From assembly GCA_031268985.1 (NCBI GenBank), contig JAIRWN010000031.1, positions 1 to 59,028 on the forward strand: a stretch of 59,028 nucleotides of DNA, in the 5' to 3' direction. Every line of letters starts with the position of its first letter. Positions within the stretch are counted from its first letter, which is position 1. Made by a program: the position numbers and the translations under genes. The notes below the pieces were generated by a model. That model was given only the letters and a program-made list of their open reading frames with translations, had not been told where the DNA came from and searched no databases. This document shows positions 1 to 59,028 of this stretch, in pieces. The stretch is from Holosporales bacterium (lineage in GTDB: Bacteria; Pseudomonadota; Alphaproteobacteria; UBA3830; JAIRWN01).

Positions 1-1382
1 GCCCAGTGTGTAATAGAGCCGGCTCCGAGAAATATTAAAAAGTCTTCAGGAACCAATTTGTCGGCTATTTTCTCGGCCAGTTCGTCAATATCTTTAACTA
101 AATCGCCTACGCCGGCCGATCTCACAAGGTTATCACTATCTATGCCATTGATCGCGTTTTCCCCGGCAGAATAAACAGAAGTAACAAAAGTATGGTCGGC
201 AAGGAAAAGCGCTTCTTTGAACTCGTTCCAAAGGTTGTGAAGTCTTGTATAACGGTGCGGTTGAATTACCGCATATATCTTGCCTCGGCAAATTTCTTTG
301 GCAGCCGTTAACACGGCTTTAATCTCGTTTGGATGGTGTCCGTAATCATCAATGATTTTCGCGCCATTAAAGCTGCCCACCTGCGTAAATCGCCGCTTCA
401 CTCCGGCAAAATTTGATAGCGCCTCTGTTGCCGTTTTGATTAAAACTCCAAGCTCGAGAGCGACTGCTAACGCTACTAAAGAATTTTGCACATTGTGCCG
501 ACCAATCAAAGAAATATGTATTTCTCTCCCGTCTAAATCTGCCGAATTTGGAAAAGTTTTCTTCATAAAGTCAGATAATCTTACCTTGAAGAAGGATCCC
601 TTTGTGTCAACAAAAACATTAATTGCGCGGATATCTGCCTGATCTGAAAAACCATATGTAACGACCCTTTTATCGTAAGTGCTTTTTGCTATGTTCATAG
701 TTTCTTGATCGTCTGCGCAGAATATTGCAATTCCATAGAAAGGAATATTGGAGGCGAACTCGACAAACGCTTGCCTCACATTTTCTATGCAGCGAAAATG
801 ATCCAGATGTTCATAGTCTATGTTTGTGATGGCGACTATGGTCACGGGCAATTTTAAGAATGTGCCGTCGGATTCGTCCGCTTCGGCCACTATCCATTTA
901 CCCCGGCCCAATTTCGCGTTTGTTCCGTAAGAATTGATTATGCCGCCGTTTATTATAGTTGGATCAAAATGAGCCTTTTCAAGTACGGCGCCAATCAATG
1001 ACGTTGTAGTCGTTTTCCCATGAGACCCTGCGACAGCAATCGAATATTTGAATTTCATCAGCTCAGCAAGCATTTCTGCTCGTTTCACGACCGGTATTTT
1101 TAAACGTCTCGCTTCTTTTACTTCGACATTTTCGTGAGACACCGCCGAAGACGCCACAACCACCCCGCAGTGATGAACATTATGCGCGTCATGGGTATGA
1201 CTGATGGAAATTCCAAGCCCCGACAGCCTTTCAGTATTGTTGTTTCTGGACAGGTCGCTTCCTTTAACCGTGTACCCAAGATTGTGCATAACTTCCGCTA
1301 TGCCGCTCATTCCGATTCCGCCAATACCAACAAAATGAATCGGCTTCATAGCGGAGCCGGCAAAGTTTTTTGTTCGGTTCAT
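1..1382 (-). CDS. murC: UDP-N-acetylmuramate--L-alanine ligase MurC (3' end runs off the window)
   Basis: Absent from the ORF track because it is open at the window edge. Reverse translation from ATG at 1380-1382 gives MNRTKNFAGSAMKPIHFVGIGGIGMSGIAEVMHNLGYTVKGSD (Mur ligase N-terminal motif). The same frame at the edge reads ...ADKLVPEDFLIFLGAGSITHW (MurC C-terminal motif). It lies directly downstream of murG. Confidence 0.85.
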   Translation of the reverse strand, partial: MNRTKNFAGSAMKPIHFVGIGGIGMSGIAEVMHNLGYTVKGSDLSRNNNTERLSGLGISISHTHDAHNVHHCGVVVASSAVSHENVEVKEARRLKIPVVKRAEMLAELMKFKYSIAVAGSHGKTTTTSLIGAVLEKAHFDPTIINGGIINSYGTNAKLGRGKWIVAEADESDGTFLKLPVTIVAITNIDYEHLDHFRCIENVRQAFVEFASNIPFYGIAIFCADDQETMNIAKSTYDKRVVTYGFSDQADIRAINVFVDTKGSFFKVRLSDFMKKTFPNSADLDGREIHISLIGRHNVQNSLVALAVALELGVLIKTATEALSNFAGVKRRFTQVGSFNGAKIIDDYGHHPNEIKAVLTAAKEICRGKIYAVIQPHRYTRLHNLWNEFKEALFLADHTFVTSVYSAGENAINGIDSDNLVRSAGVGDLVKDIDELAEKIADKLVPEDFLIFLGAGSITHW

Positions 1383-56489: not shown

Positions 56490-56579
56490 GGAGGGGTGGC
56501 CGAGCGGTTTAAGGCACCGGTCTTGAAAACCGGCAGGAAGGTAACTTTCTCGTGGGTTCGAATCCTACCCCCTCCACCA
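56490..56579 (+). tRNA. tRNA-Ser (anticodon UGA), long variable arm, CCA encoded
   Basis: Acceptor GGAGGGG/CCCCTCC, anticodon stem CCGGT/ACCGG with loop CTTGAAA, a variable arm of about 19 nt, and T-loop TTCGAAT. Confidence 0.92.
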
Positions 56580-56746
56580 AGATATAGTCCGAACAGATTC
56601 AGAGAAGTATAATTTTATAGTGAGGGATGGCAGATTTGTTAGGTTTTAGTGGTAGTATTTATTCAAACGAGTCTAATAAAATCCGCTTGCATCCTGGTAT
56701 TTTTGGTACCAAAATCGGTACCAGAGATTTTTGTATGGATGGTTCG

Positions 56747-57487
56747 ATGTTGAATGATGCGGTATGCAGGAATGCTAAGGGAAGGGACAAGATTTATACA
56801 ATAACCGATGAGAAGGGGTTATGCCTGGAAATCTATCCGAACGGAAATAAATTCTGGAGGCTTTACTACAGGCACGCAGGAGTGAAGAAGCGGATAGCGT
56901 TAGGGGTGTATCCTGAGGTTTCGTTGAGAGAAGCCAGAGACAAAAGGGAGGAGCTCAGAGCAATCATCAAGGGAGGAGAAGACCCTGCTGAGATCAGGAG
57001 GCGGGATAAGCTTGAGGCTAAGGAAGCCGTACAGAACACGTTCAAGAACATTGCGTTGGAATGGCTTGAGAAGAAGAAAGGGTCAGTAATAGCGCGTCAG
57101 ATGTTTTCTATTACCAGAAGGCTGGAGATGAATGTGCTGCCGTTTCTAGGCAGTATTCCAATAAAGAAGATATCACCTAAAGATTTACTAGCGACCATAC
57201 GCAAAGTGGAGGAGCGAGGAGCGTTAGATATGGCTCATCGTACTCTGCAGTATGTGGGGCAGATTTTTCGTTATGCGATAGCCACAGACAGATGTGAGCA
57301 CGACGTTACCGCAGACCTAAGGGGAGCGTTAATGCCCGTGAAATCAAATCACTATGCGTATTTTTCAGAGAAGGAGTTTTGTAAGTTTCTGAATGGTTTT
57401 CATGAATTCAGAGGGAATGTTCTGACGAAGCTAGCGTTGGAGTTGTTGATACTGACGTTTGTTACGTTGAGGAGACGCCAACGTTGA
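56747..57487 (+). pseudogene. P4-family tyrosine integrase, truncated (arm-binding DUF4102 and part of the SAM-like core-binding domain only)
   Basis: MLNDAVCRNAKGRDKIYTITDEKGLCLEIYPNGNKFWRLYYRHAGVKKRIALGVYPEVSLREARDKREELRAIIKGGEDP is a typical P4-integrase N-terminus. The frame ends ...LELLILTFV-TLRRRQR-stop after 246 aa. The R..HxxR..Y catalytic domain is absent, and the last codons are encoded by the 45-bp repeat. Confidence 0.8.
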
Positions 57488-57513
57488 TTGCGTTTATAAA
57501 CTAAGCCAACCCG
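57469..57513. repeat. 45-bp direct repeat, copy A
   Basis: GAGGAGACGCCAACGTTGATTGCGTTTATAAACTAAGCCAACCCG is 44/45 identical to 58955-58999. It lies 7 nt beyond the LRR stop codon and supplies the premature end of the integrase frame. Confidence 0.9.
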
Positions 57514-57520
57514 TTTGAGC

Positions 57521-58737
57521 TTAATGTCTGGCAATCACAACCCTAGCTGTTTTAGGAATAGCGTTTCCTCTTATACTTCTCAGTCGAGAGTCGGGCTCAA
57601 ATCCTACCCTGCGCAGGCTGTGGCATTCCTCAAAACACAGCCCGCTAATTATCTCTACACTCCGCGGAATACGGATAGATCTCAGTGAAGCACAACCCGA
57701 AAAGGCCCCCGCTTCGATCTCTCTCAATTGTGAACGGTCCTCAAACGTTACTCTTTTCAGAGCTCTACAATCCGAAAAGCAATTGTCGCTTATTCTTCGT
57801 ACACTAGCCGTAATGTCAATAGATGTCAGTAAAGTGCAGAAAGAAAAGGCCTCACTTCCGATCTCTATCAATTGTGAACCGGTCTTAAACGTTATACTGC
57901 TCAGGCTTTCACAATAACAAAAACACTCTTTCCCGAGGGTCCGTACACCTGGCGGAACGCTTATCGATTCCAGTGAAGAACAATTGGAAAAGGCTCGGCC
58001 TTTGATCTCTCTCAATCGAGAGCCAGGCCCAAAGTATGCGGCTTCTAGTCGTCTACAACAAAAAAACATTCCCTTTCGAGAACTACTACACTCCGCGGAA
58101 TATCCATAGATATCAGTGAAATACAACTAGCAAAGGCGCCAGATCCGATACTTGTCAAGCGCGAGTCGGGCCCAAAGTATACGGATTCTAGTCTTTCACA
58201 ATCAGAAAAAACATTTTTTCCGAGAGTCTTTACACCTGAAGGAATGTTAATAGATGTCAGTAAAATGCAGTAAGAAAAAGCCCCACTTTCGATCGATGTC
58301 AATTGCGAGTCGAGCGCAAACGTCACATCGCTCAGTGCGTTACAAGCACCAAAACACTCTTCTCCGAGAGTCTTTACCCCTGAAGGAATGTTAATAGATG
58401 TTAGTGAAGTGCAGTAAGAAAAGACCCGACAGTTGATCCTTGTCAATTGCGAGCCGGGCTCAAAGACTATAATTGACAAACGACCACGACGACCGGAATA
58501 GGGGCCGCCGACAGTGCTCATAGGACTCGCAAACCACTCTCTGTTATTATTCCTAGCAATTATCCCACTTTGGGCCTGACTTGCCACCCCATCTACACAA
58601 AGTATTCTTCTGGAAAATTGGCTAGAGTCTCTGCCTATAACTTTCTTAAGACTACAATTTGCGATTTCAGGGATAAGCAATGCTGCTACTGATGCTATTA
58701 TAACTTTTTTCACGATTATTCCTTTTATAATGAGCAA
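57521..58737 (-). pseudogene. BspA-type (LRR_5-like) leucine-rich-repeat surface protein, split into two ORFs by a 1-nt frameshift in a T7 run
   Basis: ORFs 58045..58737 and 57521..58126 overlap out of frame. Both carry the same ~24-aa repeat (F..C.SL.SI.IP.SV..LG..CF..C..L..V.F). The frame switch maps to A7 at 58060-58066. The likely start is GTG 58713 (AAGGA SD), giving the signal-like MKKVIIASVAALL. Confidence 0.8.
58221..58427 (-). repeat. In-gene tandem duplication, 144-bp period (two LRR units)
   Basis: 58221-58284 and 58365-58427 are near-identical (cgagagtctttac.cctgaaggaatgttaatagatgt.agt.aa.tgcagtaagaaaa). They encode the duplicated SINIPSGVKTLG blocks 48 aa apart. Confidence 0.85.
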
Positions 58738-58909
58738 TGTTAACTGAGCGATAGTATTAAACTGACGTCAGTTTCGCAATATATTTAATATTTTTTTACC
58801 AATCAGCCGATTGGCTGGCTAGTACGGCGTTTCTGTTCTTAAATTAGCTTTAGCTAGATTAGCGAATAGATCGAATTGCTTGCTATGCTAATTTGACCTG
58901 AAATAGAAG

Positions 58910-58938
58910 CCCCCGCTGCAGGGCAAGCAGCGCGGGGG
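58910..58938 (-). terminator. GC-rich hairpin, probable terminator of the gene lying to the right (minus strand)
   Basis: CCCCCGC (58910-58916) pairs with GCGGGGG (58932-58938), with extra inner pairs. On the minus strand it is followed by the T-rich CTTCTATTTC. Confidence 0.45.
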
Positions 58939-58954
58939 ATCTTGTGATTGCGTC

Positions 58955-58999
58955 GAGGAGACGCCAACGTTGATTGCGTTTATAAACCAAGCCAACCCG
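58955..58999. repeat. 45-bp direct repeat, copy B
   Basis: GAGGAGACGCCAACGTTGATTGCGTTTATAAACCAAGCCAACCCG. A minus-strand TAA at 59007-59009 sits at the same 7-nt offset as the LRR stop does from copy A. Confidence 0.9.
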
Positions 59000-59028
59000 G
59001 TCGGGTTTATATTACCTTCCCGGTATGG

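What the first reader, a model, noticed from the sequence alone, without database searches (positions are those of the whole stretch)
57469..58999. 45-bp near-perfect direct repeats bracket the LRR cassette and mark the exact breakpoint of the integrase
57469-57513 and 58955-58999 are 44/45 identical. Copy A begins within a few nt of where the integrase loses similarity to P4-type integrases (...LELLILTFV | TLRRRQR-stop), so the recombination that placed this sequence removed the catalytic half of the integrase. On the minus strand, each copy sits 7 nt downstream of a stop codon: the LRR TAA at 57521-57523, and a TAA at 59007-59009 closing a frame that enters from beyond the window. The coding sequences just upstream of those stops are not similar. 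This is therefore a conserved, position-fixed 3'-flank element shared by consecutive genes rather than a simple gene duplication. Copy B contains a small hairpin (GCGTC-GAGGA-GACGC) and an internal GATTGCGT direct repeat. Possible roles are a cassette-boundary or recombination site, a 3'-UTR RNA element, or the scar of serial cassette insertion. I could not match it to a known element by eye.
Basis: partly seen in the sequence, partly recalled or inferred. Interest (0 to 1): 0.65.

Follow-up and report, generated by a model that had tools for sequence, protein, structure and literature searches.

The report
Short repeat flanking LRR gene
A 62-base sequence occurs twice, on either side of a broken surface-protein (LRR) gene in a decaying gene island of a Holosporales endosymbiont; the left copy marks where a deletion cut an integrase gene in half, and this is most likely an ordinary rearrangement scar rather than a new kind of element.

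Summary
The repeat is real and is longer than reported: 57462-57523 and 58948-59009 match at 55 of 62 positions, with a 44/45 core. No shuffle gave two matches, and the 59-kb window holds no third copy. Nucleotide homology to an intact relative's integrase (84% aa) ends at 57462, the first base of copy A and just before the catalytic Arg codon. The breakpoint claim is therefore confirmed.

The claim of a position-fixed 3' flank of consecutive genes is shown only for copy A. The window is a whole contig that ends 19 nt beyond copy B. The "TAA closing a frame" there is therefore untestable: two of the three minus-strand frames have a TAA in those last bases. A strong terminator-like hairpin 9 nt downstream of copy B favours a minus-strand gene there.

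There is no Rfam match, no fold conserved between the copies, no attC core sites, no tRNA similarity and no terminal inverted repeats. No copy turned up in any public collection or in relatives.

Best reading (about 0.45): two same-strand genes share a homologous 3' flank, and copy A was clipped by the deletion that removed the integrase's catalytic half. Rivals are the start of a plus-strand gene or mobile element running off the contig, or a recombination site.

Interest is low.

The parts
56490..56579 (+). tRNA-Ser(UGA), the anchor of the island remnant
   Evidence: ARAGORN; Rfam tRNA 60 bits
56747..57487 (+). Truncated P4-type tyrosine integrase with the arm-binding and central domains only. 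True integrase sequence ends at 57462; the last 8 codons and the TGA stop are supplied by repeat copy A.
   Evidence: Pfam Arm-DNA-bind_3 and Phage_int_M, no PF00589. 84% aa identity to intact 393-aa P0002. Nucleotide homology 56621-57462 matches L001 9877-10716 at 78.6% and stops there, before the RSGELR motif.
57462..57523 (.). Repeat copy A (62 nt; core 57469-57513). Its left edge is the junction with the integrase; its right edge is the TAA stop of the LRR gene on the minus strand.
   Evidence: the repeat finder D3, 89%; mismatch map; junction alignment
57521..58737 (-). BspA-type LRR gene, split by a frameshift into two overlapping ORFs (58045-58737 with a signal-peptide-like N-terminus, and 57521-58126). 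No close paralogue was found.
   Evidence: ORFs; Pfam LRR_5 at 4e-31 and 1e-44; best non-self relatives 50% identity or less
58738..58909 (-). Upstream (promoter) region of the LRR gene
   Evidence: Position only; promoter-like site 58743-58715
58910..58938 (-). Strong G+C-rich hairpin followed by CTTCTATTTC on the minus strand. It is a terminator-like site 9 nt downstream of copy B.
   Evidence: strand folding: the 117-nt stretch that includes it gives -40.2 kcal/mol, z -2.4, against -19.3 kcal/mol, z +0.6, for the 91-nt stretch that cuts it. The terminator scan lists it on the minus strand only.
58948..59009 (.). Repeat copy B (62 nt; core 58955-58999). It carries the perfect small hairpins GCGTC/GACGC and AACCCG/CGGGTT and the palindromes CAACGTTG and GTTTATAAAC.
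59010..59028 (.). Last 19 nt of the contig. Their nature is unknown: either the end of a minus-strand gene or a continuing plus-strand ORF.
   Evidence: The window is the whole contig; frame analysis

Best explanation
The 62-nt repeat is a homologous stretch of 3'-flanking (3'-UTR) DNA that follows the stop codon of two neighbouring minus-strand genes next to, or inside, a degraded tRNA-Ser island. In the complete arrangement, seen at copy B, the order on the minus strand is gene stop, the 62 nt, 9 nt, then a strong terminator hairpin. At copy A the same flank follows the LRR gene. An illegitimate deletion (1 to 4 nt of microhomology at most) joined the middle of the P4-type integrase gene to a point 62 nt downstream of the LRR stop. 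That deletion removed the integrase's catalytic half, the rest of the island and the LRR gene's own terminator. The left edge of the similarity is therefore a deletion scar, and the right edge is the natural gene end. Shown: the repeat, the junction position, the hairpin and the LRR stop. Inferred: that a minus-strand gene ends at 59007-59009, that one deletion made the junction, and that the near-identity of the 45-nt core (1 mismatch, against 6 in the outer 17 nt) reflects gene conversion or some constraint.
For: Integrase homology ends at exactly the first base of copy A, so a single event explains both the truncation and the left limit of the repeat. The right limit coincides with the LRR stop, and the same TAA is kept in copy B. 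The LRR protein ends about 11 residues after its last GxxAF-like motif, as related proteins do (P0150 and the L011 array), so the stop is the gene's own. Six of 7 mismatches are transitions, which points to homology by descent over all 62 nt. A terminator-like hairpin lies 9 nt beyond copy B and is flagged on the minus strand only; no plus-strand gene lies upstream that it could terminate. Intact islands of relatives carry int, AlpA, primase and DUF927 genes, all on the plus strand and with no LRR gene, so everything after integrase codon ~239 has been lost here. A second relative (L013) has an integrase broken 13 nt away and joined to unrelated DNA, so such truncations happen independently without this repeat. 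Earlier notes describe this genome as gene-decaying, and the LRR gene is frameshifted.
Against: The gene to the right of copy B is not visible, and two of the three minus-strand frames show a TAA in the last 22 nt. The last 19 nt of 'coding' sequence show no similarity (2/19 ungapped), which is odd for paralogues whose flank is 98% identical in its core. No close LRR paralogue turned up, although proteins longer than 402 aa and contig-edge fragments were outside those searches. Mismatches are strongly clustered at the edges (P about 0.001, post hoc), and simple neutral divergence of a duplicated flank does not explain that. Copy B contains GAGGAG, 9 nt, then TTG with an ORF open to the contig end on the plus strand.
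Confidence: 0.45

Rival explanations
1. The repeat is the 5' end of a plus-strand unit: either the ribosome-binding site and first codons of a gene, or the terminus of an insertion sequence or other mobile element that continues beyond the contig end. On this reading copy B belongs to a full-length copy. Copy A is a 62-nt remnant of a copy that had inserted into the integrase gene and was then mostly deleted.
For: Copy B has GAGGAG (58955-58960), a 9-nt spacer, then TTG (58970), with an ORF (MIAFINQANPVGFILPSRY...) open to the last base. In copy A the single core mismatch turns codon 7 into TAA. An insertion would explain a sharp left boundary at the integrase break. The contig ends 74-81 nt into the repeat, as assemblies often do at multi-copy elements. 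The plus strand of copy B folds better than shuffles (-20.1 kcal/mol, z -2.1), while the minus strand does not.
Against: This reading needs at least three events, with one deletion endpoint falling exactly on the LRR stop codon. The two ends of the 62 nt match at only 7 of 25 positions as inverted repeats. The 27- to 46-residue peptides hit no Pfam family, and their only NCBIfam match is a chance-level one (E 0.15). No match to the core or to the back-translated peptide was found in GTDB genomes, JGI metagenomes, IMG/VR or plasmids, and the phage set gave only one chance-level match (E 0.06). A strong hairpin would sit between any promoter and this start. The other end of the contig lies inside murC, so contig ends in this assembly need not mark repeats. 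L013's similarly broken integrase carries no such sequence.
Confidence: 0.2
2. The 45-nt core is an active site-specific recombination site at cassette boundaries, analogous to attC, dif or att sites. The 1486-bp LRR unit entered, or can leave, as a circle by recombination between two such sites, leaving one copy on each side.
For: Direct repeats bracket a single foreign-looking gene that has its own upstream region. The core is far better conserved than its edges. The core contains an imperfect inverted repeat, GTTGATTGCGT-TTATAA-ACCAAGCCAAC, with 11-nt arms (7/11 symmetric) around an A+T-rich 6-mer. That layout is typical of tyrosine-recombinase core sites (the comparison itself is from general knowledge).
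Against: Only two copies are known. No intact recombinase is nearby; the only integrase is truncated by the site itself. There are no RYYYAAC/GTTRRRY core sites on either strand and no similarity to tRNA-Ser. The genes converge on the integrase instead of diverging from it as in integrons. The coincidence of the site's edge with the integrase break still needs an extra deletion. No related site was found next to LRR genes of relatives.
Confidence: 0.12
3. The repeat is a structured RNA element of the 3' UTR, such as a stability element or a 3'-UTR-derived small RNA that uses the downstream terminator.
For: At copy B it lies between a stop codon and a terminator hairpin. The core is conserved.
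Against: No Rfam family matches above noise. Minus-strand folds are no better than shuffles (z -0.6 for both 62-mers) and differ between the copies. The small hairpins of copy B are destroyed in copy A, and copy A has no terminator.
Confidence: 0.08
4. The repeat is a chance match or an assembly artefact.
For: The source is a fragmented metagenome-assembled genome, and copy B lies at a contig end.
Against: Zero matches were expected in 100 shuffles. The copies differ at 7 positions and have different flanks, so they are separate loci. The integrase/repeat junction shares no k-mer that could mislead an assembler.
Confidence: 0.03

Closest known systems
Degraded tRNA-linked genomic islands with truncated P4-type integrases (deletion scars)
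   Same: A tRNA-Ser gene is followed by a P4-family integrase that keeps its arm-binding and central domains and loses the catalytic domain. Relatives carry intact islands with int, AlpA, primase and DUF927 genes. An independent truncation is seen in L013.
   Different: Here the scar abuts a sequence that recurs 1486 nt away, so the junction can be placed to the base.
Conserved flanks in tandem families of BspA-type LRR genes (concerted evolution or gene conversion)
   Same: LRR_5 genes on the same strand occur in arrays with conserved gene ends, for example locus L011 with at least 10 genes and 75-nt conserved 3' ends.
   Different: In L011 the conserved part is the C-terminal coding sequence up to the stop. 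Here it is the non-coding 62 nt after the stop, the visible coding ends differ, and no paralogue could be shown.
Integron attC sites / Vibrio VCRs
   Same: Imperfect palindromic repeats lie directly after the stop codons of successive same-strand genes.
   Different: There are no R''/R' core sites and no IntI, the integrase is P4-type and convergent, and only two copies are known. This is not a member.
Small intergenic repeats and MITEs (REP/BIME, ERIC, Correia, RPE)
   Same: A short, partly palindromic sequence sits in the 3' flank of genes.
   Different: There are no terminal inverted repeats and no recognisable target duplication. No further copy occurs in 59 kb (about 55 genes). The fold is not stable.
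Insertion-sequence termini at contig ends
   Same: There is a sharp boundary at a disrupted gene, and the contig stops about 80 nt into the repeat.
   Different: No transposase is visible, there is no inverted repeat, and the sequence has no relatives in any collection searched.

Membership tests
Integron attC site | Core sites RYYYAAC ... GTTRRRY bracketing an imperfect palindrome | tested here: not met
   A regex search of both copies with about 30 nt of flank on each side (less to the right of copy B, where the contig ends), on both strands, found neither motif.
Integron attC site | Integron integrase (IntI) with attI, divergent from the cassette array | tested here: not met
   The only integrase is P4-type (Arm-DNA-bind_3, Phage_int_M), truncated, and convergent with the LRR gene.
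tRNA-derived att site of a P4-type island | The direct repeat equals the 3' end of the target tRNA gene | tested here: not met
   The best local alignment of copy B to tRNA-Ser and its flank is 6-9 nt. The one tRNA-like 17-mer (57593-57609) lies inside an LRR unit, and the repeat finder groups that stretch with the other LRR units (families D2 and D6).
REP/MITE-type dispersed repeat | Many copies dispersed in intergenic regions of the genome | tested here: inconclusive
   Only the two copies occur in 59 kb.
REP/MITE-type dispersed repeat | Terminal inverted repeats or a stable palindromic fold | tested here: not met
   The ends match at 7/25 as inverted repeats. Fold z-scores are -0.5 to -0.7, except for copy B on the plus strand at -2.1.
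Insertion sequence terminus | Adjacent transposase gene, a matching inverted repeat at the other end, and a target-site duplication | not testable with these tools
   The contig ends 81 nt after the left edge of copy B. The short peptides gave no significant family match.
Intrinsic terminator | G+C-rich stem-loop followed by a U tract | tested here: not met
   The 62-nt repeat itself is not one. Copy B has only a weak 5-bp candidate at 59007-58994, and copy A has none. The neighbouring hairpin 58910-58938 does qualify but lies outside the repeat.
Known RNA family (Rfam 15) | Covariance-model match at or near the gathering score | tested here: not met
   Only noise-level hits overlap the repeat: snoZ7 at 19 bits against a gathering score of 43, and Gl_U6 at 19 bits against 100.
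P4-type tyrosine integrase (for the flanking gene) | Arm-binding, central and catalytic (PF00589, with R..HxxR..Y) domains | tested here: not met
   The first two domains are present and the catalytic domain is absent. The break lies just before the first catalytic Arg (LILTFV|RSGELR in P0002). It is a family member by descent but not a functional one.

The most novel reading that the evidence does not exclude
The 45-nt core (GAGGAGACGCCAACGTTGATTGCGTTTATAAACYAAGCCAACCCG) would be a previously undescribed cassette-boundary recombination site. Its layout resembles a tyrosine-recombinase core site: 11-nt imperfect inverted arms around TTATAA. On this reading single effector-type genes (here a BspA-type LRR gene with its own promoter) are inserted into and excised from an array beside a tRNA-Ser island in a Holosporales endosymbiont. 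The unusually high conservation of the core relative to its edges would reflect that function.
Probability: 0.08. Interest if true: 0.7.

Novelty: new member of a known kind. Interest (0 to 1): 0.2.

Why it matters
As it stands the finding matters little. It documents to the base how an island integrase was cut in an endosymbiont genome that is losing genes, and it shows that an LRR gene shares its 3' flank with whatever lies next to it. It would matter if the complete genome showed the 45-nt core recurring between many effector genes. That would point to a cassette system for host-interaction genes in intracellular bacteria outside the integron paradigm. The data available here (two copies, a contig end, no relatives) cannot establish that.

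Tried and rejected

**Collection scans.**
- Exact 22-mer of the core in GTDB genome contigs and in JGI metagenome contigs: 0 hits.
- 19-mer of the core in IMG/VR: 0 hits.
- blastn of copy B against plasmids gave no match. Against phages it gave one chance-level hit, E 0.06.
- Back-translated peptide IAFINQANP in metagenomes: 0 hits.

**Sequencing runs.** None was listed for three different stretches, so no reads or RNA-seq could be laid.

**Extending the contig.** Look-ups by the window's own proteins found nothing on record.

**LRR paralogues.** Two protein searches and one genome scan found no non-self relative above 50% identity. L002 is a different genome (GC 54% against 42%).

**Relatives' LRR loci.** Neither L011 nor L012 carries the repeat.

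**Rejected readings.**
- attC site, tRNA-derived att site and MITE with terminal inverted repeats.
- Coding sequence: on the minus strand the two copies are open in different frames relative to the repeat.
- Assembler chimera: there is no shared k-mer at the junction.
- Matching repeat at the other contig end: the left end lies in murC and the alignment score is at background.

**Integrase-targeting element.** L013 has an integrase broken 13 nt away but with unrelated DNA after the break, so the repeat is not a recurrent integrase-targeting element.
Full report
**Observation.** The repeat exists. The 33-mer GAGGAGACGCCAACGTTGATTGCGTTTATAAAC occurs at 57469 and 58955 and nowhere else in the window. 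None of 100 dinucleotide-preserving shuffles gave even one match. The 45-mers are 44/45 identical. The repeat finder extends the similarity to 62 nt, 57462-57523 against 58948-59009, at 89%. The 7 mismatches lie at 57464, 57468, 57502, 57514, 57516, 57518 and 57520. Six are transitions, so the outer parts are homologous too and not chance flanks. The repeat therefore includes the TTA (TAA on the minus strand) at its right end in both copies. A sensitive blastn of both copies against the whole 59-kb window found no third copy, only 10-14-nt chance matches.

**The window is a whole contig.** The window's own integrase fragment is listed with 'longest contig 59028'. The DNA therefore stops 19 nt after copy B. 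The left end of the contig lies inside murC, a single-copy gene, so contig ends in this assembly are not necessarily at repeats. The genome is a Holosporales metagenome-assembled genome: the closest integrase is named that way, and earlier notes on another piece of this genome say the same.

**The integrase breakpoint.**
- The ORF 56747-57487 has the arm-binding and central domains of P4-type integrases but no catalytic domain.
- Its closest intact relative is P0002 (393 aa, 84% identity), on locus L001 next to tRNA-Ala.
- At the nucleotide level, window 56621-57462 aligns with L001 9877-10716 at 78.6% and then stops.
- The three-way alignment shows integrase identity through ...CTGACGTTTGT (57462). 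Identity to copy B begins at 57462/57463.
- In protein terms the break is LILTFV|RSGELR, immediately before the first catalytic arginine. The last 8 codons and the stop of the truncated ORF are read from the repeat.
- The junction shares 1 nt ungapped. If a 3-nt gap is allowed it shares 4 nt (TTGT). The intact relative and the left flank of copy B both read TTGTGA here (L001 10713-10718; window 58942-58947). This is a possible but unproven microhomology.

**What lies between and around the copies.**
- On the minus strand, 57521-58737 is a BspA-type LRR gene (Pfam LRR_5). It is split into two overlapping ORFs by a frameshift.
- Its upstream region is 58738-58909.
- A strong G+C-rich hairpin follows at 58910-58938, with CTTCTATTTC after it on the minus strand. 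The terminator scan reports it on the minus strand only. It accounts for most of the folding energy of the region: -40.2 kcal/mol (z -2.4) for the 117-nt stretch that includes it, against -19.3 (z +0.6) for the 91-nt stretch that cuts it.
- Copy B begins 9 nt to its right.
- On the minus strand the order at copy B is therefore TAA, 62-nt repeat, 9 nt, terminator-like hairpin. At copy A it is LRR TAA, 62-nt repeat, integrase remnant.
- No plus-strand gene lies upstream of the hairpin that it could terminate. This is the main indirect evidence that a minus-strand gene ends to the right of copy B.
- The TAA at 59007-59009 is not evidence by itself. Only 6 codons are visible. A second minus-strand frame has a TAA at 59012-59014. 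The third frame is open through the repeat and the hairpin.

**What the repeat is not.**
- Rfam gives only noise over it.
- On the minus strand neither 62-mer folds better than shuffles (z -0.66 and -0.61), and the predicted folds differ.
- Copy B's small hairpins (GCGTC/GACGC and AACCCG/CGGGTT) are broken in copy A by five of the peripheral mismatches; the sixth falls in a loop.
- Only the plus strand of copy B folds notably (-20.1 kcal/mol, z -2.1).
- There are no attC core sites on either strand and no similarity to tRNA-Ser. The two ends match at only 7 of 25 positions as inverted repeats.
- On the minus strand the two copies lie in different open frames, so the repeat is not coding there.

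**Relatives.**
- Intact islands with related integrases (L001, L009, L010) carry int, a hypothetical gene, AlpA, a Toprim primase and DUF927. All are on the plus strand, and none has an LRR gene. In the window everything after integrase codon ~239 is therefore missing.
- A further relative, L013, has an integrase (67% identity) next to tRNA-Ser(GGA). Its homology to both the window and L001 ends 13 nt upstream of the window's break and continues into unrelated A+T-rich DNA with no trace of the repeat. Similar truncations thus arise independently, and the repeat is not an element that targets this integrase motif. The closeness of the two breaks is not significant, because the search could only return N-terminal fragments of about this length.
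- The LRR protein has no non-self relative above 50% identity among 5.8 billion proteins, within the length ranges searched: 110-352 aa and 126-402 aa.
- A Holosporaceae LRR gene (L012) has no similar 3' flank.
- A metagenomic contig (L011) shows that BspA-type LRR genes do form same-strand tandem arrays with conserved gene ends. There the conserved part is the C-terminal coding sequence.

**Best explanation (confidence about 0.45).** The 62 nt are a homologous 3' flank of two neighbouring minus-strand genes. The complete layout is seen at copy B: stop, repeat, terminator. At copy A an illegitimate deletion fused the middle of the integrase to a point 62 nt beyond the LRR stop. This explains with one event why integrase homology and repeat homology meet at the same base, and why the right limit is the stop codon. 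The LRR protein ends about 11 residues after its last GxxAF-like motif, like its relatives, so the stop is its own. Two things remain unexplained. The first is why the 45-nt core has 1 mismatch while the outer 17 nt have 6; the hypergeometric P is 0.0012, but the boundaries were chosen post hoc. The second is why the 19 visible nt of the neighbour's 'coding' end are unrelated. Gene conversion confined to the core, or a functional constraint on it, would account for the first.

**Rivals.**
- *Start of a plus-strand unit (0.2).* Copy B reads GAGGAG, 9 nt, then TTG, with an ORF open to the contig end. The single core mismatch makes a stop in copy A. The repeat could therefore be the start of a plus-strand gene or of a mobile element running off the contig. 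An insertion would give a sharp boundary in the integrase. This reading needs three events and a deletion endpoint exactly on the LRR stop. No transposase-like signal or relative was found.
- *Recombination site at cassette boundaries (0.12).* The bracketing geometry, the conserved core and an 11-6-11 imperfect inverted repeat fit. There are only two copies, no intact recombinase and no known core motifs.
- *Structured 3'-UTR RNA (0.08).* The folds do not support it.
- *Artefact or chance (0.03).* The statistics and the distinct flanks exclude it.

**Limits.** The genome is absent or masked in the searchable collections. No sequencing runs were listed.

**Verdict.** The repeat is a real, precisely mapped, two-copy local repeat. 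It marks the integrase deletion junction and the end of the LRR gene. The breakpoint claim is confirmed, the 'position-fixed 3'-flank element' is half shown, and an active role is unsupported. It is most likely an ordinary rearrangement scar in a decaying island, and its interest is low.

Noticed in passing
window 58045-58126: The LRR gene is split into two overlapping ORFs in different frames (58045-58737 and 57521-58126). It is a frameshifted pseudogene, a slippage-prone gene or a sequencing error.
   Followed up: no
L013 744-1460 (JGI 3300042636 contig, 1559 nt): A second P4-type integrase (67% identity) lies beside tRNA-Ser(GGA). Its homology ends 13 nt upstream of the window's breakpoint and runs into unrelated A+T-rich DNA. 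P0038 (242 aa) also ends at ...LTFVRI. Several N-terminal halves of these integrases thus survive with breaks just before the catalytic Arg. This could be search bias or retention of the DNA-binding half.
   Followed up: partly
window 56678-56723 and L013 423-468: The GGTACC-containing palindrome region between tRNA-Ser and the integrase start is 78% conserved between the two loci, although the integrases are only 67% identical at the nucleotide level. It is a candidate regulatory or arm-type site.
   Followed up: partly
L011 1-12139 (JGI 3300042652 contig): A tandem array of at least 10 same-strand BspA-type LRR genes built from 141-nt units. The genes share conserved 5' regions of about 270-300 nt and 75-nt conserved 3' coding ends (...CPKLTPKPF*).
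   Followed up: partly
window 58942-58947 and L001 10713-10718: TTGTGA occurs both in the intact relative's integrase, across the window's break point, and immediately left of copy B. It is a possible 4-6-nt microhomology used by the deletion.
   Followed up: partly
window 57514-57520: The four mismatches in the tail of the repeat fall on alternate bases (57514, 57516, 57518, 57520). Together they abolish copy B's AACCCG/CGGGTT hairpin in copy A.
   Followed up: no
window 1-1382: The contig starts inside murC, whose ORF runs off the left end. This assembly therefore also breaks within single-copy genes.
   Followed up: yes
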